A stretch of DNA of 64,000 bases from an uncultured Clostridia bacterium (GTDB taxonomy: Bacteria > Bacillota > Clostridia > TANB77 > CAG-508): contig CAKPDZ010000001.1 of NCBI GenBank assembly GCA_934149155.1, positions 38,648 to 102,647 on the forward strand, read 5' to 3'. Shown one piece after another: positions 59,338 to 63,864 of the stretch. The notes below the pieces were generated by a model, which worked only from the letters and a program-made list of their open reading frames with translations, had not been told where the DNA came from and searched no databases. The first letter of the stretch is position 1; each line of letters starts with the position of its first letter. The position numbers and the translations under genes are program-made.

Positions 59338-59368
59338 TGCACAGATGGGACCGGTTCTTAAATGTGCA
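59338..59368. repeat. ACCGGT-core palindromic intergenic motif TGCACAGATGGGACCGGTTCTTAAATGTGCA
   Basis: Same 31-mer at 60775..60805; variants at 61259..61289, 63054..63107, 63108..63152, 63789..63810, 63811..63864. Confidence 0.55.
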
Positions 59369-59383
59369 TTTTATAAAATAAAA

Positions 59384-59415
59384 ATAGCAAGAATATTTGT
59401 CTTGCTATTTTTTAA
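59384..59415. terminator. Intrinsic terminator after TasA-like gene
   Basis: ATAGCAAGA loop TCTTGCTAT followed by TTTTTT. Confidence 0.55.
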
Positions 59416-59434
59416 CTCATTGTTTTTATATTTT

Positions 59435-60622
59435 TTATTCTCCTGGCGCCTCTGTTGAACCAACTACTGATCCTTTTACTAATCCAATATTAACTTTTAT
59501 TCCTCCACCATGTGAAGCATAGTTAATACAGTCAACATCTTGTCCTTCTAGCCATAAATATATTCTTAATCTACAAATTTTATTTGCAGCAATTCCAAAT
59601 GTTGTTGACCCATCACTTGTACTTACTAAGTTTTGAACACCTTCTTTTATTGTATAATCGCTATCACTTTTTTTAGTTGTTTGTAGAGTTTTTTGTTTTT
59701 GAACATTAGATTCAGAACCATCCCATTTATAAATATCAGGAATTGTATTTCCAATAGAACTTTCTTTTAATGCATATGTAGGCATTTTAGTATTAACATC
59801 AAATCCTTTTCTTCCTGTTGAATCAAGCACCTTTGTTTCATATGCAGTTTTTTCTGGTTCAGACCATGTTATTTTATTATTATTTTGAACTATATAATCA
59901 ACGTGATCACTTGCATTTGGTTCCCAAATAGCAACATCAGTAATATTAGGTGTTGCAGCACTTACTCCTATTCCTGCAGTTTCTTTAAGAATTGTAGCTT
60001 GATCAGCCATTACCTCTGATGTTCCATTATATTTTGCAAATGCAACTCTAGCTGTATTTTGCAATCCTGTTGAACTTTTTTCAGCCTCTAAAATTTCTAA
60101 TGAAGAGTCATAATTCAACTGTAACACATCATCTGCTCCGTCAACTTTTGATGAATTTTTCAAAAACACATCAAAAGCGAAATATCCTGGATAAGTTGAC
60201 TTGCTTGGTTGTGTCTCTGTTTCTACCATTGATTGGATTTCACTTAATTTTTTTGAATCTTCAATTTTTCCTCTTAGCATTTTTAAATCTGTTTGCCCTC
60301 CTGTAGCAAGACCTAATGTAGATACTGGTAACATCTCACTTGGAGAAATATTGTGATGTCCTGAATACGCATCATCAATAATATTCAACTCTCCATCTCC
60401 ATCTCCTAGTACAATTCCATTTGACCATTTATCTCCATCAAGGGAAATTTCCAAACCTTCTGCAACCTCTACAGTACCAGTCAAATTAGTAATTGATACA
60501 TTCTTTTGTGTTGAGAACCATGCATAAGTTGATATTATAAACATAACTAAAGCAATTAATATTATAAAAAACATTGCATTCATTTCAGATTTTGTCTTTT
60601 CTCTATCTTTTTTACCCTTCAT
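59435..60622 (-). CDS. Secreted protein with TasA/camelysin-type (SipW-cognate) signal peptide
   Basis: 395 aa; GGGAGA RBS; signal MFFIILIALVMFIISTYAWFSTQKN closely resembles the GGT(F/Y)A(F/Y)FSD region of TasA/camelysin precursors. Confidence 0.65.
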   Translation of the reverse strand: MKGKKDREKTKSEMNAMFFIILIALVMFIISTYAWFSTQKNVSITNLTGTVEVAEGLEISLDGDKWSNGIVLGDGDGELNIIDDAYSGHHNISPSEMLPVSTLGLATGGQTDLKMLRGKIEDSKKLSEIQSMVETETQPSKSTYPGYFAFDVFLKNSSKVDGADDVLQLNYDSSLEILEAEKSSTGLQNTARVAFAKYNGTSEVMADQATILKETAGIGVSAATPNITDVAIWEPNASDHVDYIVQNNNKITWSEPEKTAYETKVLDSTGRKGFDVNTKMPTYALKESSIGNTIPDIYKWDGSESNVQKQKTLQTTKKSDSDYTIKEGVQNLVSTSDGSTTFGIAANKICRLRIYLWLEGQDVDCINYASHGGGIKVNIGLVKGSVVGSTEAPGE

Positions 60623-60684
60623 TTCTTTCTCCCTTTCATCTTTCTTGTTTCTTCTTTATTCACTCTTATTTTCAATTCTCTTTC

Positions 60685-60713
60685 ATTTTACTATCTATTT
60701 TTGGGTTTGTCAA
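60685..60713 (-). promoter_or_regulatory. Consensus sigma-A promoter for TasA-like gene 59435..60622
   Basis: TTGACA - 17 nt - TAAAAT. Confidence 0.5.
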
Positions 60714-60734
60714 CAATTTTCAATCAATAATTAT

Positions 60735-61258: not shown

Positions 61259-61289
61259 TTGCACATTTAAGAACCGGTCCTAAATGTGC
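61259..61289. repeat. ACCGGT-core palindromic motif copy (TGCACATTTAAGAACCGGTCCTAAATGTGCA)
   Basis: 10-bp inverted arms around AGAACCGGTCC; immediately after hydrogenase stop. Confidence 0.5.
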
Positions 61290-63037
61290 AAATTATATTT
61301 AGGTCTTTCAACATAATGTGTATGTAATAATTTATGTGCCCTATAACTTCCTGGTTCTTCAAGATACTCTTCGTAAATCTTTTTCACTGTAGGATTTTCG
61401 TGTGATTTTCTAATAACACTTTTTTCATCTATAGAGTACAAAGCATCAGCTCTGAGTTTTCGCACATCAACTTCTCTTCTAATCTTAGAATTCTTAATTG
61501 GCTGGCCTCCACCCATTACACATCCTCCTGGACACGCCATTATTTCTACAAATTGATAGTCAGCTTTTCCTGTTTTAATTTCTTCCATTATTTTTTGTGC
61601 ATTTGCTAATCCACTTGCAGCTACCACTTTTATCTTTTTTCCTCCAATATTAATAGTTGCTCTTTTTATTCCTTCTCCACCTCTAACTTGTTCAAAGTCA
61701 ATTTTATCTAAATTCTTTCCTGTTAATGTATCTTGAGCAGTCCTTAGTGCTGCTTCCATTACTCCTCCAGTTGTTCCAAAAATTGCTGCAGCTCCAGTGG
61801 CTTCTCCCATAGGATTATCAAATTCACTATCTGCTAATTTTTCAAACTCTATATTAGCCTGTTTTATCATTCTAGAAAGTTCTCTAGTTGTAATTACATT
61901 ATCAACATCATATAATCCATTATTCTTCATCTCTGCCCTTTGTCTTTCAAACTTTTTAGCAATACATGGCATAACTGAAACCATATATATTTTTTCTGGA
62001 TTAATCCCTTCTTTTTTTGCGAAATATGTCTTTATTAATGCTCCAAACATTTGATGTGGTGATTTACATGTTGATAAATGTGGTAACAGTTCTGGATAAT
62101 TCATTTCTATGTATTTTACCCATCCAGGTGAACACGAGGTTATCATTGGTAAACTGTCATTCTCATTTAGCCTTTCTATAAATTCATGTGCCTCTTCAAT
62201 TATAGTAAAATCAGCACCTGTATTTGTATCAAAAACTTTATTGAATCCAAGTCGCTTTAATGCTGTAACCATTTTTCCTGTTACATTAGTTCCAATCGGC
62301 ATACCAAATTCTTCTCCAAGTGCAACTCTGACAGCTGGAGCTGTTTGAACAACTACATATGTTTCCGGGTCTTTCAGTTTTACCCATACATCATTTATAG
62401 TTTCTTTTTCATGTAATGCTCCTGTCGGACAAGCTTGTATACATTGCCCACAATTAGTACAATTAACATCATTCAAGCTATTATCTCCAACGGTAGAAAT
62501 ACATGATTCAAAACCTCTATTTATGCAATCAATAGCTCCTATTTTTTGCACATTTTTACATGCGGCAACACATCTTCTACATAATATGCATTTGTTAAAA
62601 TCCCTTACAATAGATGGAGATAAATCATCAATTTTATGTTTTGTCATTTCTCCCGGAAACTCAACATTTAACACATTAAACTTGACAGCTAAAGTCTGTA
62701 ACTCACAATTTCCCGAACGTGTACATGTCAAACAATCTTTAGCATGATTTGAAATAATCAAATCTAATATTACATGTCTAGCCTCAAGAACATTTGGAGT
62801 ATGTGTATGCACTATCATTCCTTCTTCAACTGTCTGGATACAAGCAGTTGCAAAACCTTTTCTTCCTTCAACTTCAACAATGCACATTCTACAATCTCCA
62901 ACTTCATTAATATCCTTTAAAAAACATAGTGTTGGTATGTCTATTCCTGCATGCTTTGCTGCCTCTAATATGGTTGTTCCTTTTGGTACTTTTATTTCTA
63001 TTCCATCTATTGTTAGAAATATATCTTCTTTGTTCAT
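61280..63037 (-). CDS. hydA: [FeFe] hydrogenase, monomeric CpI-like (M3 architecture)
   Basis: 2Fe-2S ferredoxin-like N-terminus (CFL..GDCRMC), His-ligated cluster motif HAKDCLTCTRSGNC, two CxxCxxCxxxC(P) motifs, H-cluster motifs TSCSPGW, MPCIAKKFE, EIMACPGGCVMGGGQP; GGAGGAGGAATATG RBS supports internal Met at 63037 (586 aa), not ORF start at 63163. Confidence 0.85.
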   Translation of the reverse strand: MNKEDIFLTIDGIEIKVPKGTTILEAAKHAGIDIPTLCFLKDINEVGDCRMCIVEVEGRKGFATACIQTVEEGMIVHTHTPNVLEARHVILDLIISNHAKDCLTCTRSGNCELQTLAVKFNVLNVEFPGEMTKHKIDDLSPSIVRDFNKCILCRRCVAACKNVQKIGAIDCINRGFESCISTVGDNSLNDVNCTNCGQCIQACPTGALHEKETINDVWVKLKDPETYVVVQTAPAVRVALGEEFGMPIGTNVTGKMVTALKRLGFNKVFDTNTGADFTIIEEAHEFIERLNENDSLPMITSCSPGWVKYIEMNYPELLPHLSTCKSPHQMFGALIKTYFAKKEGINPEKIYMVSVMPCIAKKFERQRAEMKNNGLYDVDNVITTRELSRMIKQANIEFEKLADSEFDNPMGEATGAAAIFGTTGGVMEAALRTAQDTLTGKNLDKIDFEQVRGGEGIKRATINIGGKKIKVVAASGLANAQKIMEEIKTGKADYQFVEIMACPGGCVMGGGQPIKNSKIRREVDVRKLRADALYSIDEKSVIRKSHENPTVKKIYEEYLEEPGSYRAHKLLHTHYVERPKYNLHI

Positions 63038-63053
63038 ATTCCTCCTCCTTTTT

Positions 63054-63152
63054 TGCACATTTGGTACCGGTTCTGTTTTGTACCTAAGAATGGTACTATT
63101 TTGCTCACAAGACCGGTACTTTTTTGCACATTTCATCTTAAAGACTGGTCCC
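63054..63152. repeat. Two tandem ACCGGT-core repeat units immediately upstream of hydrogenase RBS
   Basis: 63054..63107 differs at 2 positions from 63811..63864; second degenerate unit 63108..63152. Confidence 0.55.
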
Positions 63153-63169
63153 TTTTTGTTCATTTTTAT

Positions 63170-63718
63170 TTAATCAGATATAACTTTAGAATCTTTTTCC
63201 GCTTCTTTAGTATCTTCTTTAGTCATTTCTTTATATGATTTGTGACTATCTAGCAAATTGACAAAAAGTTCTATTTGTATACTCAAAAATGCTACATATG
63301 GTACGTGCTGCTCCAATAAATACTTTCTTACCAACTCATTTGAAATATTGTCTACTCTCATTCGCTCTGGATAAGATGTATCATTTGTCATAATAATATA
63401 GTACACAAATAAGATAGCAATCATAATTAAAATTTTATTACTCTTTTTATTTTTTATTTGTAATACAAATGTTATTATAGATGCAATAAGTAATATACTA
63501 GCAATTAATGTCAATATTCTTACATCGCATTTCACCCAAAATCCTGTGTTTTTGGTATTCCATGCGTATGAAAGATATATCCACGCAAACATGTTTAATA
63601 ACATGCATACATTTAATATTTTATATTTTCGTTTTATTAAATTTTCTATTAACATTATTATTGGCAATGCAAATATTGACGCATTTACAATTATAATCAT
63701 TATCTCTGATAACTTCAT
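63170..63718 (-). CDS. Small polytopic membrane protein, unknown function
   Basis: 182 aa, about 4 hydrophobic helices, GGAGGA RBS. Confidence 0.55.
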   Translation of the reverse strand: MKLSEIMIIIVNASIFALPIIMLIENLIKRKYKILNVCMLLNMFAWIYLSYAWNTKNTGFWVKCDVRILTLIASILLIASIITFVLQIKNKKSNKILIMIAILFVYYIIMTNDTSYPERMRVDNISNELVRKYLLEQHVPYVAFLSIQIELFVNLLDSHKSYKEMTKEDTKEAEKDSKVISD

Positions 63719-63788
63719 CTTAATTATTCCTCCATCTTTTACTCTTTTGTTTTACGCGTTATATATATTTGTACATTATGGACCGGTT

Positions 63789-63864
63789 CTGTTTTGCTCA
63801 CTGCGCATTTGGGACCGGTTCTGTTTTGTACCTAAGAATGGTACTATTTTGCTCAATTTCCAAT
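63789..63864. repeat. Two tandem ACCGGT-core repeat units upstream of membrane-protein gene
   Basis: GGACCGGTTCTGTTTTGCTCAC then TGCGCATTTGGGACCGGTTCTGTTTTGTACCTAAGAATGGTACTATTTTGCTCA. Confidence 0.55.

What the first reader, a model, noticed from the sequence alone, without database searches (positions are those of the whole stretch)
59338..63864. Family of ACCGGT-core palindromic motifs in five intergenic regions linking the hydrogenase locus and TasA-like genes
The unit TGCACA-GATGGGACCGGTTCTTAAA-TGTGCA and its relatives recur between every gene from 57.8 to 63.9 kb: upstream of the 454-aa gene, upstream of the TasA-like gene, after the hydrogenase stop, directly abutting the hydrogenase RBS, and upstream of the membrane-protein gene. 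A weaker copy (GTAACTGGTTCTGTTCTGTCC) sits at 5230..5262 in front of the ATPase module. All copies can fold into hairpins. The two 54-bp units at 63054..63107 and 63811..63864 differ at only 2 positions. Either this is an operator for one palindrome-binding regulator co-controlling hydrogenase and matrix-protein genes, or it is a REP/BIME-like intergenic repeat affecting mRNA stability. The GTTCTGT/GTTCTTA half-sites loosely resemble the Bacillus SinR box GTTCTYT. That is suggestive given the sipW/tasA context, but it is unproven.
Basis: partly seen in the sequence, partly recalled or inferred. Interest (0 to 1): 0.65.

Follow-up and report, generated by a model that had tools for sequence, protein, structure and literature searches.

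The report
Dispersed repeats tied to Y1 transposase
The ACCGGT-core motifs are copies of a short repeat scattered through this gut Clostridia genome's intergenic regions and partnered with a REP-type tyrosine transposase gene just outside the window; they are not a regulator's binding site linking the hydrogenase and matrix-protein genes.

Summary
The motif family is real. Eleven units lie in five intergenic regions between 59.3 and 63.9 kb, far above chance. It is not specific to the hydrogenase or "TasA-like" genes. An identical metagenome contig extends the window by 9 kb. There, a 262-aa HUH/Y1 transposase gene (best matches: NCBIfam REP-associated tyrosine transposase; PDB 4ER8, the E. 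coli RAYT bound to a REP hairpin) is flanked by arrays of the same units in inverted orientation. The 31-nt consensus TGAGCAAAACAGAACCGGTCCCAAATGYGCA has 85 strict matches on 16 contigs of the species-representative MAG. 77 of 79 clusters lie outside long ORFs, next to unrelated genes and also between convergent genes. Homologous transposases (58-63% identity) in at least six of seven related loci carry their own diverged repeats in the same inverted layout. A sister strain keeps the promoters, but the number and orientation of units differ at the same intergenic regions. The REP/BIME reading is therefore supported and the operator/SinR reading is not. It departs from classical REPs in three ways: no GTAG foot, weak single-unit hairpins, and head-to-tail dimers with a 32-nt period. 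It is a new member of a known kind and of modest interest.

The parts
59338..59368 (-). Repeat unit (palindromic subfamily: TGCACATTTAAGAACCGGTCCCATCTGTGCA on the minus strand). It lies downstream of the 395-aa gene's terminator and about 62 nt upstream of the -35 of the 454-aa gene's promoter.
   Evidence: 22/31 match to the genome consensus. Identical to the 60775 copy (I5/I6). Promoter at 59276-59248.
60775..60805 (-). Repeat unit, same subfamily, about 62 nt upstream of the -35 of the 395-aa gene's promoter.
   Evidence: Promoter TTGACA-N17-TAAAAT at 60713-60685.
60819..60849 (+). Repeat unit in the opposite orientation. With 60775-60805 it forms an inverted doublet (REPIN-like) with a 27-bp stem.
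   Evidence: I24: 27 nt, 93% complementary, 15 nt apart. (DNA fold -26.9 kcal/mol, z -10).
61260..61290 (+). Repeat unit overlapping the end of the hydrogenase gene. It supplies the last codons (L-H-I) and the TAG stop at 61280-61282.
   Evidence: In the sister strain, HydA ends ...KYNI* without this unit. RNA hairpin of 15 bp, z -6.7.
63054..63084 (-). Full repeat unit (GGTACAAAACAGAACCGGTACCAAATGTGCA) directly abutting the hydrogenase RBS.
   Evidence: 26/31.
63077..63107 (-). Truncated leader-type unit (TGAGCAAAATAGTACCATTCTTAGG) that precedes full units in most clusters.
63100..63130 (-). Truncated leader-type unit with an intact ACCGGT core (TGTGCAAAAAAGTACCGGTCTTG).
63125..63162 (-). Degenerate unit (TGAACAAAAAGGGACCAGTCTTTAAGATGAAATGTGCA).
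63770..63800 (-). Full repeat unit. It is the second of a head-to-tail dimer with 32-nt spacing, upstream of the 182-aa membrane-protein gene.
   Evidence: 27/31.
63802..63832 (-). Full repeat unit, the first of the head-to-tail dimer.
   Evidence: 28/31.
63825..63855 (-). Truncated leader-type unit. Its terminal TGAGCA contains the TGA stop (63853-63855) of the NuoF-like gene.
   Evidence: Gene call in L001.
5238..5268 (-). Possible decayed relic of a unit (TGGACAGAACAGAACCAGTTACATTGGCTCT) in the intergenic region 5207-5269.
   Evidence: 20/31 match, a level that shuffled windows reach about 0.3 times per window. Shares ACAGAACCAGT with leader-type units in L001.

Best explanation
The motifs are copies of a genome-wide family of short intergenic repeats of the REP/BIME type. 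Their partner is a single nearby HUH/Y1 tyrosine transposase gene of the RAYT/TIRYT type (262 aa). That gene lies about 2.6 kb beyond the window's right end, at L001:5653-6441.

The basic unit is 31 nt: TGAGCAAAACAGAACCGGTCCCAAATGYGCA. The commonest element is about 87 nt. It consists of a 23-nt truncated unit followed by two full units head to tail, 32 nt apart.

Inferred mechanism, by analogy with E. coli TnpA-REP and IS200/IS605 TnpA: the transposase recognises the GGGACCGG-containing unit on single-stranded DNA, for example at replication forks, and cuts and rejoins it. This seeds new copies in intergenic DNA and expands or contracts the arrays.

The hydrogenase to 454-aa gene stretch is a repeat-rich patch near the transposase gene. 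Any effects of the units on the neighbouring genes are by-products of insertion, not the elements' reason for existing. Such effects include donated stop codons, RNA hairpins in the polycistronic hydrogenase transcript, and a structure next to the hydA RBS.
For: Shown:
1. Contig L001 is 100% identical to the window over 12,721 nt and extends it. It carries a Y1_Tnp gene (Pfam PF01797, 38 bits against a cutoff of 23). The gene's only NCBIfam hit is REP_Tyr_transpos, aligned end to end (E 1.4e-16).
2. That gene is flanked by arrays of the unit in inverted orientation: three copies of GGGACCGGTTCT upstream and two of GAACCGGTYCC (GAACCGGTTCC, GAACCGGTCCC) downstream.
3. HUH (H60, H62) and Y119-x-H-x-N-P are invariant in 30 homologues. 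The AlphaFold model (pLDDT 79) has its best PDB match in 4er8_A, the RAYT bound to a REP hairpin (E 1.2e-5, TM 0.70). IS608, IS200 and ISDra2 TnpA follow.
4. A strict 20-nt pattern found 85 matches on 16 contigs of MAG CAKOYU01, more in four related MAGs, and only about 8 single hits elsewhere, matching my estimate of about 9 chance matches.
5. In 335 kb there are 145 units in 79 clusters. 77 of the 79 lie outside long ORFs although about 87% of the sequence is coding. 57 clusters are in co-directional, 7 in convergent and 6 in divergent intergenic regions.
6. The element has sharp ends and unrelated flanks.
7. Homologous transposases at 58-63% identity are flanked by their own diverged repeats in the same inverted layout in six of seven loci: TTGGGGTCGGTTCC, TTTGGGGACGGGATTG, CTGGGACCGGGTA, AAAGGGACCGGGTC. 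Where counted (L067-L069), these are also the most frequent GC-containing 12-mers of their loci.
8. The transposase gene keeps a syntenic position (YunB / gene / NuoE) in L069 and L070.
9. At orthologous intergenic regions of a sister strain, promoters and coding sequence align, but unit number, type and orientation differ by whole units.
Against: - The protein scores below NCBIfam's equivalog cutoff for RAYT (60.7 against 80 bits).
- The units lack the GT[AG]G foot that defines canonical REPs.
- Single consensus units do not fold better than shuffles.
- The dominant arrangement is head-to-tail, not the inverted doublet of REPINs.
- Catalysis and mobility are inferred, not shown.
- Copy number of the transposase gene was checked only in the 335 kb fetched, where there is one locus. 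In MAG CAKOYU01 the gene appears split into 138- and 108-aa ORFs.
- The first 57 kb of the window has no convincing copy in about 15 intergenic regions, so the distribution is patchy. This is unexplained.
Confidence: 0.88

Rival explanations
1. The motifs are operator sites for one palindrome-binding transcription factor (SinR-, Rex- or Fur-like) that co-regulates the hydrogenase operon and the downstream secreted-protein genes.
For: The unit is a near-palindrome. Two copies sit at the same distance, about 62 nt, upstream of the -35 of the two best promoter-like sites in the region.
Against: - Copies lie in at least 79 intergenic regions beside unrelated genes. They also lie in convergent intergenic regions, over stop codons and against an RBS with no promoter in between.
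- They occur in both orientations.
- At the same promoters in a sister strain, the units differ in number and orientation while the -35/-10 and the ATGTAAYA repeats are conserved.
- The half-sites do not match GTTCTYT exactly.
- The equal 62-nt distance comes from a duplicated 75-nt block (unit plus ATGTAAYA array), not from independent positioning.
Confidence: 0.03
2. The units exist mainly as RNA structures in operon transcripts (stabilisers, terminators or translational modulators). On this view they spread by selection, and the neighbouring transposase gene is coincidental.
For: - Most copies lie in co-directional intergenic regions, close to the upstream stop codon (median 29 nt), so they are probably transcribed.
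- Some window copies form strong RNA hairpins (z -6.7).
- Orientation is biased 39:17 relative to transcription.
- The cluster next to the hydA RBS folds moderately as RNA (z -2.4).
Against: - Consensus units and the sense-strand dimer do not fold better than shuffles.
- The only terminator-like sites inside the units (the GTACC hairpins at 63080 and 63828) are on the antisense strand.
- No Rfam family matches.
- The inverted flanking of the transposase gene recurs with co-varying sequences in six of seven other lineages, which coincidence does not explain.
- RNA effects remain likely as side effects, as they are for E. coli REPs.
Confidence: 0.04
3. The units are miniature elements (MITE- or PATE-like) mobilised by a different transposase, or remnants of an IS200/IS605 insertion sequence. 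They would not be partners of a domesticated single-copy RAYT-type gene.
For: Sharp element boundaries. A second, unrelated repeat of about 170 nt with terminal inverted repeats exists in the same genome. The protein belongs to the broad IS200-like Pfam family.
Against: - No flanking direct duplication is evident by eye among the 52 aligned elements (not tested formally).
- No TnpB or DDE gene lies next to the Y1 gene.
- The Y1 gene sits in a conserved syntenic position across lineages at 59-63% identity, which suggests vertical inheritance rather than IS behaviour.
- Only one locus was found in 335 kb of repeat-rich sequence.
- The flanking repeats are in inverted orientation (REPtron layout). 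My recollection is that IS200/IS605 ends are non-inverted subterminal hairpins.
Confidence: 0.05

Closest known systems
REP/BIME elements with their REP-associated tyrosine transposase (RAYT, TnpA-REP; 'REPtron'), e.g. E. coli RayT/YafM, PDB 4ER8
   Same: - HUH/Y1 fold, with 4ER8 as the best structural match.
- Best NCBIfam model is REP_Tyr_transpos.
- The gene is flanked by the repeats in inverted orientation.
- The same short repeats are dispersed at high copy number almost only in intergenic DNA, often in clusters.
- Repeat sequence co-varies with the transposase across lineages.
- The gene occupies a conserved chromosomal position.
   Different: - No GT[AG]G foot.
- The consensus unit is a weak palindrome that does not fold on its own.
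- Clusters are head-to-tail with a fixed 32-nt period plus a truncated leader unit. They are not alternating BIMEs or inverted REPINs.
- The protein has a C-terminal helical extension of about 120 aa and scores below the RAYT equivalog cutoff.
- The host is a low-GC, uncultured gut Clostridia lineage (a related complete MAG chromosome is 1.55 Mb), not a proteobacterium.
TIRYT/TIRtron systems (Di Nocera et al. 2013, PMC3733652), which probably equal TnpA-Y1 subclass 2.1 (Quentin et al. 2018, PMC6006769)
   Same: - A RAYT-like protein longer than RAYTs, with a C-terminal extension. Here the model shows helices at 223-234, 241-248 and 252-261, with conserved GTNKTQVARVIR...R. This looks like a helix-turn-helix by inference.
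- Flanking inverted repeats carry a G-rich motif close to the published GGGGWSAS: GGGGACGG and GGGGTCGG match 7 of 8 positions, TGGGACCG 6 of 8.
- The flanking repeats can belong to dispersed families organised as dimers or clusters.
   Different: - Quentin et al. found no REP-like sequences for subclass 2.1. Here the partner repeats are abundant: at least 85 strict copies in one MAG.
- Pfam finds only faint HTH hits in the C-terminal part.
- Phylogenetic placement in subclass 2.1 was not tested.
REPINs of Pseudomonas and Enterobacteria (Bertels and Rainey 2011, PMC3116915)
   Same: Non-autonomous repeats tied to a transposase that looks single-copy and vertically inherited. One window site (60775-60849) is a genuine inverted doublet with a long hairpin.
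   Different: Only 1 of 66 neighbouring unit pairs in the main genome is inverted. 57 of 66 are direct with 32-nt spacing. Bertels et al. 2017 report abundant flanking repeats only for RAYT groups 2 and 3, and mention Clostridia only for group 1.
Bacillus SinR operator (GTTCTYT)
   Same: A loose resemblance only: the unit contains GTTCTGT or GTTCTTA.
   Different: No exact match to the consensus, a genome-wide intergenic distribution, and no conserved promoter geometry.

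Membership tests
REP/RAYT (REPtron) | Partner protein is an HUH/Y1 transposase with an HUH motif and a catalytic Tyr | tested here: met
   Pfam Y1_Tnp at 38.2 bits, above the cutoff of 23. 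H60, H62 and Y119 are invariant in 30 homologues. Foldseek's top PDB hit is 4er8_A, followed by IS608, IS200 and ISDra2 TnpA.
REP/RAYT (REPtron) | Protein reaches the curated RAYT equivalog score (NCBIfam NF047646, 80 bits) | tested here: not met
   60.7 bits, E 1.4e-16, aligned over positions 2-146 of 146. It is the only NCBIfam hit.
REP/RAYT (REPtron) | Transposase gene flanked by the repeats in inverted orientation | tested here: met
   L001: upstream 5446-5575 reads GGGACCGGTTCT and downstream 6470-6560 reads GAACCGGTYCC (GAACCGGTTCC, GAACCGGTCCC), with an exact inverted arm of 40 nt. The same layout occurs in CAKOYU locus L061 and, with diverged sequences, in six of seven homologous loci.
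REP/RAYT (REPtron) | The same repeats are dispersed at high copy number, essentially only in intergenic regions | tested here: met
   85 strict matches on 16 contigs of one MAG. 145 units in 79 clusters within 335 kb, with 77 of 79 clusters outside long ORFs at about 87% coding density.
REP/RAYT (REPtron) | Repeat is an imperfect palindrome forming a stem-loop with a 5' GT[AG]G foot | tested here: not met
   The 31-nt consensus contains no GTAG or GTGG. Its DNA fold energy is 0 to -0.6 kcal/mol, z +0.9 to +1.5. Only the palindromic subfamily in the window folds.
REP/RAYT (REPtron) | Transposase gene is single-copy and vertically inherited | tested here: inconclusive
   One locus in 335 kb of repeat-bearing sequence. 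The position between YunB and NuoE is conserved in L069 and L070, and the position next to MutL in L067, L068, L071 and L073. No whole-genome count was possible.
REP/RAYT (REPtron) | Protein cleaves and rejoins single-stranded repeat DNA | not testable with these tools
   Needs biochemistry of the kind cited in PMC3733652 and PMC6006769 for E. coli TnpA-REP.
REPIN | The replicating unit is an inverted doublet of two REPs forming a long hairpin | tested here: not met
   Neighbouring pairs are direct in 65 of 66 cases and 32 nt apart in 57 of 66. The window's 60775-60849 pair is an exception.
TIRYT / TnpA-Y1 subclass 2.1 | C-terminal HTH-type extension (Bac_DnaA_C, HTH_23 or HTH_28) | tested here: inconclusive
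   262 aa with a helical C-terminal half in the model. Pfam gives only faint hits: HTH_7 in 2 of 30 members at E 0.014, and HTH_28 and HTH_23 in 1 of 30 at E 0.2.
TIRYT / TnpA-Y1 subclass 2.1 | Flanking inverted repeats contain GGGGWSAS | tested here: inconclusive
   Near matches only: TGGGACCG (6 of 8 positions), GGGGACGG and GGGGTCGG (7 of 8). The consensus is taken from PMC3733652.
TIRYT / TnpA-Y1 subclass 2.1 | Phylogenetic placement among reference subclass 2.1 sequences | not tested
Transcription-factor operator (SinR/Rex-type) | Sites confined to promoter-proximal positions of a functional gene set and conserved at orthologous promoters | tested here: not met
   Sites occur beside unrelated genes, in convergent intergenic regions, over stop codons and against an RBS. 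Unit content differs between strains while the promoters are conserved.
Known structured RNA family (Rfam) | Match to a curated covariance model | tested here: not met
   No match at gathering score in the window. L001 gave only sub-threshold hairpin-type hits.

The most novel reading that the evidence does not exclude
This ~260-aa Y1 family, with its C-terminal helical extension, may be the TIRYT / subclass 2.1 type that Quentin et al. reported as having no REP-like partner. In gut Clostridia it has a genuine high-copy, co-diversifying repeat partner. That partner spreads as head-to-tail arrays with a 32-34-nt period plus a truncated leader unit, not as hairpin-forming REPs or inverted REPINs. 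This would point to a different recognition and amplification route: recognition of a GGG(G)WC(C)GG motif, possibly helped by the HTH domain, and array growth by repeated cleavage and rejoining. The arrays would also shape genes, by donating stop codons and marking a recombination breakpoint at hydA.
Probability: 0.3. Interest if true: 0.5.

Novelty: new member of a known kind. Interest (0 to 1): 0.3.

Why it matters
- For annotation: these motifs should be masked as a repeat family, not mined as a regulon signal. They explain spurious N- and C-terminal ORF extensions. Examples are the 627-aa call for the 585-aa hydrogenase and the "EPVPNVQ" tails on transposase homologues.
- For mobile-element biology: this is a clear example of a REP-like family with a RAYT/TIRYT-type partner in low-GC gut Clostridia. 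Bertels et al. (PMC5581495) mention Clostridia only for RAYT group 1, and abundant repeats only for groups 2 and 3.
- Its architecture (direct 32-nt tandems, no GTAG foot) differs from the proteobacterial models on which the mechanism is based.
- The repeats also provide strain-level markers in metagenomes.

Tried and rejected
- Operator reading: rejected on distribution, orientation and strain variability.
- SinR box: no exact match.
- Riboswitch or known RNA: no Rfam hit.
- Intrinsic terminators: the only terminator-like sites inside the units are on the antisense strand. The real terminators on the coding strand are at 59412-59380 and 57649-57634.
- Invertible segment between the inverted copies at 59338 and 61260 (33 nt, 91% complementary): four strains and the sister MAG are all collinear, so there is no support.
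- Integron attC or CRISPR array: I saw no R'/R'' GTTRRRY-type cores in the units (integron consensus from memory), the units are contiguous without spacers, and no integrase or cas gene was called nearby.
- My first ORF-based count put half the sites "inside genes". This was an artefact of taking the longest ORFs, which run through the repeats. With RBS-based starts, 97 of 123 sites are intergenic, and 20 of the remaining 26 lie within 100 nt of an ORF end.
- Sequence searches of the PDB with the protein and with a 30-sequence profile found nothing, even at E 10. Only the fold comparison worked.

Full report
**1. What is in the window**

All genes in the window are on the minus strand, and GC content is about 29%. 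Read in the direction of transcription, the end of the window encodes:
- the C-terminus of a NuoF-like Fe-S protein;
- a 182-aa membrane protein (63170-63718);
- a 585-aa [FeFe] hydrogenase (61280-63037; Pfam Fe_hyd_lg_C, E 2.5e-106);
- a 121-aa protein (60853-61218);
- a 395-aa protein (59435-60622);
- a 454-aa protein (57845-59209).

The 395-aa "TasA-like" protein has no significant Pfam or NCBIfam match. An S26 signal peptidase does exist at 5838-6356.

**2. The observation**

ACCGGT-core units occur in all five intergenic regions between 59.2 and 63.9 kb. A scan with the genome-derived 31-nt consensus finds ten of them, plus one borderline hit at 5238. The eleventh, at 63125-63162, is degenerate and was identified by eye.

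The enrichment is far beyond chance. GAACCGGT with at most 1 mismatch gives 23 matches against 6.0 +/- 2.5 in shuffles, and every copy with an intact core lies in the last 4.6 kb.

Four details need correcting:
- The second 54-nt unit is at 63802-63855, not 63811-63864. In that register it differs from 63054-63107 at 2 positions.
- Not all copies fold. Only the 61260 unit and the 60775-60849 inverted pair fold strongly.
- The 5238 copy is at chance level.
- The GTTCTYT resemblance is inexact.

**3. The decisive context lies just outside the window**

The hydrogenase protein is encoded on nine metagenome contigs from human gut samples, Hadza among them. Contig L001 is 100% identical to the window over 12,721 nt and extends it by 9 kb. 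About 2.6 kb beyond the window end, it carries a 262-aa gene (L001:5653-6441) of the Y1_Tnp family, lying between YunB and the NuoE/NuoF/HydA genes.

Upstream of that gene are three full units reading GGGACCGGTTCT, plus one degenerate unit. Downstream are two full units plus one degenerate unit in the reverse-complement orientation. The longest exact inverted arm is 40 nt. This is the REPtron layout.

L001 has 17 GNACCGGTYC sites (0.02 expected) in 11 intergenic regions. These include SpoVG-LiaF, DUF4097-SipL and NuoE-NuoF, genes unrelated to hydrogenase or matrix proteins.

**4. The protein**

- Pfam Y1_Tnp passes its cutoff.
- The only NCBIfam hit is REP_Tyr_transpos, aligned end to end, at 60.7 bits. 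This is below the 80-bit equivalog cutoff.
- The database search found 550 homologues of about 260 aa, none with a name.
- H60, H62 (the HUH motif), Y119-x-H121-x-N123-P124 and W137-S-S are invariant among 30 of them.
- An AlphaFold model (pLDDT 78.9) has its best PDB match in 4er8_A, the E. coli REP-associated tyrosine transposase bound to a REP hairpin (E 1.2e-5, TM 0.70). IS608, IS200 and ISDra2 transposases follow.
- Residues from about 150 to 262 form an extra helical domain. Its last helices carry the conserved GTNKTQVARVIR...R segment, which looks like a helix-turn-helix by inference. Pfam gives only faint HTH hits there.

**5. Genome-wide distribution**

A strict 20-nt pattern (AGAACCGGTCCCAWMTGYGC) was scanned against one genome per species.
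- It found 60 stretches of DNA.
- 85 matches fell on 16 contigs of MAG CAKOYU01, an uncultured Clostridia bacterium from Hadza gut.
- Others fell in OV788638.1 (a 1.55-Mb complete MAG chromosome), CAKPHD01, CAKOMQ01 and CAKPLQ01.
- Eight single hits fell in unrelated phyla, matching my estimate of about 9 chance matches.

CAKOYU01 is the same species as the window, or a close relative: the two are 99.6% identical across 63273-64000.

In 313 kb of non-overlapping CAKOYU loci plus L001, there are 145 units in 79 clusters. 77 of the 79 clusters lie outside long ORFs, although about 87% of the sequence is coding. By flanking-gene arrangement, 57 clusters are in co-directional, 7 in convergent and 6 in divergent intergenic regions. 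The median distance is 29 nt from the upstream stop codon and 55 nt to the next start codon.

**6. Anatomy of the element**

The consensus unit is TGAGCAAAACAGAACCGGTCCCAAATGYGCA. The central 27 nt (CAAAACAGAACCGGTCCCAAATG-GCA) are at about 80% or more in all 145 units, and most positions are at 90% or more.

Neighbouring units are head to tail at exactly 32 nt in 57 of 66 pairs. Only one pair is inverted.

The commonest complete element is about 87 nt. It consists of a 23-nt truncated unit (TGAGCAAAAAAGTACCAKTCTTG) followed by two full units, with sharp ends and unrelated, A-rich flanks.

Orientation relative to transcription is biased 39:17. Because genes are co-oriented, this bias cannot be separated from replication direction.

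The consensus unit does not fold on its own. In a dimer, the G/T-rich strand can pair the two cores (RNA z -2.4; DNA z -0.4).

The four units in 59.3-61.3 kb belong to a more palindromic subfamily (TGCACATTTARGAACCGGT...).

**7. Co-variation across lineages**

Seven homologous transposase genes at 58-63% identity were fetched with their flanks. In six of them, the gene is flanked by inverted repeats that differ from ours but share a G-rich core:

| Locus | Flanking repeat |
|---|---|
| L068 | ATTGGGGTCGGTTCC |
| L070 | TTTGGGGTCGGTTCT |
| L067 | TTTGGGGACGGGATTG |
| L069 | CTGGGACCGGGTA |
| L071, L073 | AAAGGGACCGGGTC |

In the seventh locus (L072), no inverted arm longer than 13 nt was found. 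There the gene call (P0109) has a C-terminal tail that resembles a translated repeat, so the downstream copy may have been missed.

In L067-L069, the flanking repeat is also the most frequent GC-containing 12-mer of the locus and lies in several intergenic regions. L068 has 19 copies, again in tandem, with a 34-nt period.

The gene keeps its chromosomal position: between YunB and NuoE in L069 and L070, and next to MutL in L067, L068, L071 and L073. This fits vertical inheritance.

**8. Turnover between strains**

CAKOYU loci L061 and L010 are contiguous and collinear with the window. Coding regions, the two promoters and the ATGTAAYA repeats align. The repeat content differs by whole units:
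- The array upstream of the transposase gene has one unit fewer.
- Downstream of hydA there is an array of about 110 nt in one orientation, in place of the window's single unit in the opposite orientation.
- Upstream of the 395-aa gene there is a leader unit plus two direct units, in place of the window's inverted pair.
- Upstream of the 454-aa homologue there are three units instead of one.

In the window strain, the unit at 61260 supplies the last three codons and the TAG stop of HydA (...KYNLHI* against ...KYNI* in the sister strain). The TGA stop of the NuoF-like gene lies inside a unit's terminal TGAGCA.

**9. Interpretation**

The evidence fits a REP/BIME-type repeat family partnered with a RAYT/TIRYT-type Y1 transposase.

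What is shown: the association, the inverted flanking, the intergenic dispersal, the co-variation, the turnover, and the catalytic motifs and fold.

What is inferred: the protein recognises the unit on single-stranded DNA and cuts and rejoins it, and array growth and dispersal follow from that.

Regulatory side effects are possible but untested. Examples are RNA hairpins in the hydrogenase transcript and a structure next to the hydA RBS (z -2.4).

**10. Comparison with the literature**

- Canonical REPs have a GT[AG]G foot and a stem-loop. REPINs are inverted doublets (PMC3116915, PMC3733652, PMC6006769). Neither feature holds here.
- Di Nocera et al. described RAYT-like "TIRYT" genes flanked by inverted repeats that share GGGGWSAS. 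Some of those repeats belong to moderately abundant families arranged in dimers or clusters.
- Quentin et al. equate TIRYTs with subclass 2.1: long proteins with a C-terminal HTH extension. They found no REP-like partners for that subclass.
- Our motifs match GGGGWSAS at 6-7 of 8 positions.
- Bertels et al. 2017 note RAYT group 1 in Clostridia, but report abundant flanking repeats only for groups 2 and 3.

I therefore file this as a new member of the RAYT/TIRYT-with-dispersed-repeats kind. It has variant features: direct 32-nt tandems, no GTAG foot, a C-terminal domain and a Clostridia host. Assigning it to a subclass needs a phylogeny, which I could not run.

**11. Limits**

- No whole-genome census of units or of the transposase gene was possible.
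- The loci analysed were selected because they contain the repeat, so density estimates are upper bounds. The intergenic-versus-genic contrast is not affected by this.
- Gene calls are my own simple ORF/RBS calls.
- The first 57 kb of the window has no convincing copy in about 15 intergenic regions. I cannot explain this patchiness.

Noticed in passing
window 59288-59325 and 60735-60770 (minus-strand sense): Three direct repeats of ATGTAAYAWAA, 11 nt apart, lie between the dispersed repeat and the -35 of the two strongest promoter-like sites (the 454-aa and 395-aa genes). They are conserved in the sister MAG. In strain L004, which is otherwise 99.9% identical, they are deleted cleanly as a 38-nt block. 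They are a better candidate for a shared control element than the ACCGGT units. They also resemble reiterations of the unit's terminal AAATGTGCA.
   Followed up: partly
window ~63100 (inside the repeat cluster 63054-63162): Identity between the window strain and MAG CAKOYU01 is 99-100% from 64000 down to about 63101. It then drops abruptly to 82-89% through hydA and onward. A recombination or replacement breakpoint therefore coincides with the repeat cluster upstream of hydA.
   Followed up: partly
window 31593-31769 and 32196-32361: A second, unrelated dispersed repeat of about 170 nt has its own terminal inverted repeats (AAAAACAATATATTATTAATT). Two copies in inverted orientation (149-nt arms, 91% complementary) bracket about 450 bp between the giant genes. 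Copies at about 92% identity occur in CAKOYU loci L015, L030 and L041, and a probable partial copy (not in the BLAST output) near L001:190-260. It has no Rfam match.
   Followed up: partly
window 61280-61290 and 63853-63855: Repeat units donate coding sequence. The last three codons and the TAG stop of HydA, and the TGA stop of the NuoF-like gene, lie inside units. The longest-ORF call for the hydrogenase (627 aa) runs 42 codons upstream through the repeat cluster (…TEPVPNVQKRRRN).
   Followed up: yes
homologues P0069, P0074, P0085, P0109, P0120: Several database homologues of the transposase have C-terminal tails such as EPVPNVQKGQNGTGT. These are translations of downstream repeat units (GAACCGGTNCCNAATGTNCA), so those gene calls read into the repeats.
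   Followed up: partly
L061:3839-4628 (MAG CAKOYU01): In the species-representative MAG, the transposase gene appears split into 138-aa and 108-aa ORFs. The two tblastn segments overlap, at 100% and 82% identity. This is either a frameshift (pseudogene) or an assembly error. The gene is intact (262 aa) in the window strain's contigs L001 and L002.
   Followed up: no
L063:3910-4030 (MAG CAKOYU01): Three repeat units lie about 560-650 nt from the 3' end of a 1253-aa ORF (802-4563). This is either an in-frame insertion inside a gene or two genes fused by an ORF reading through the repeats.
   Followed up: no
window 9443-57551: Three consecutive giant ORFs (7311, 5205 and 3187 aa) contain many 87-nt (29-aa) and roughly 340-nt periodic repeats. 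The third carries Laminin_G_3 and DUF285 domains according to precomputed Pfam hits on the metagenome contigs. In strain L003 the third gene is much shorter (1174 aa).
   Followed up: no
window 63170-63718: A 182-aa multi-pass membrane protein of unknown family sits between the NuoF-like gene and hydA in the hydrogenase operon. This placement is conserved in relatives (177 aa in L069, 170 aa in L070).
   Followed up: no
window 1-57800: There is no convincing copy of the repeat in about 15 intergenic regions. In contrast, 11 intergenic regions within the first 15.5 kb of L001, around the transposase gene, are occupied. The patchy distribution is unexplained. It might reflect local hopping, or recent acquisition of the giant-gene/signal-peptidase region.
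   Followed up: no
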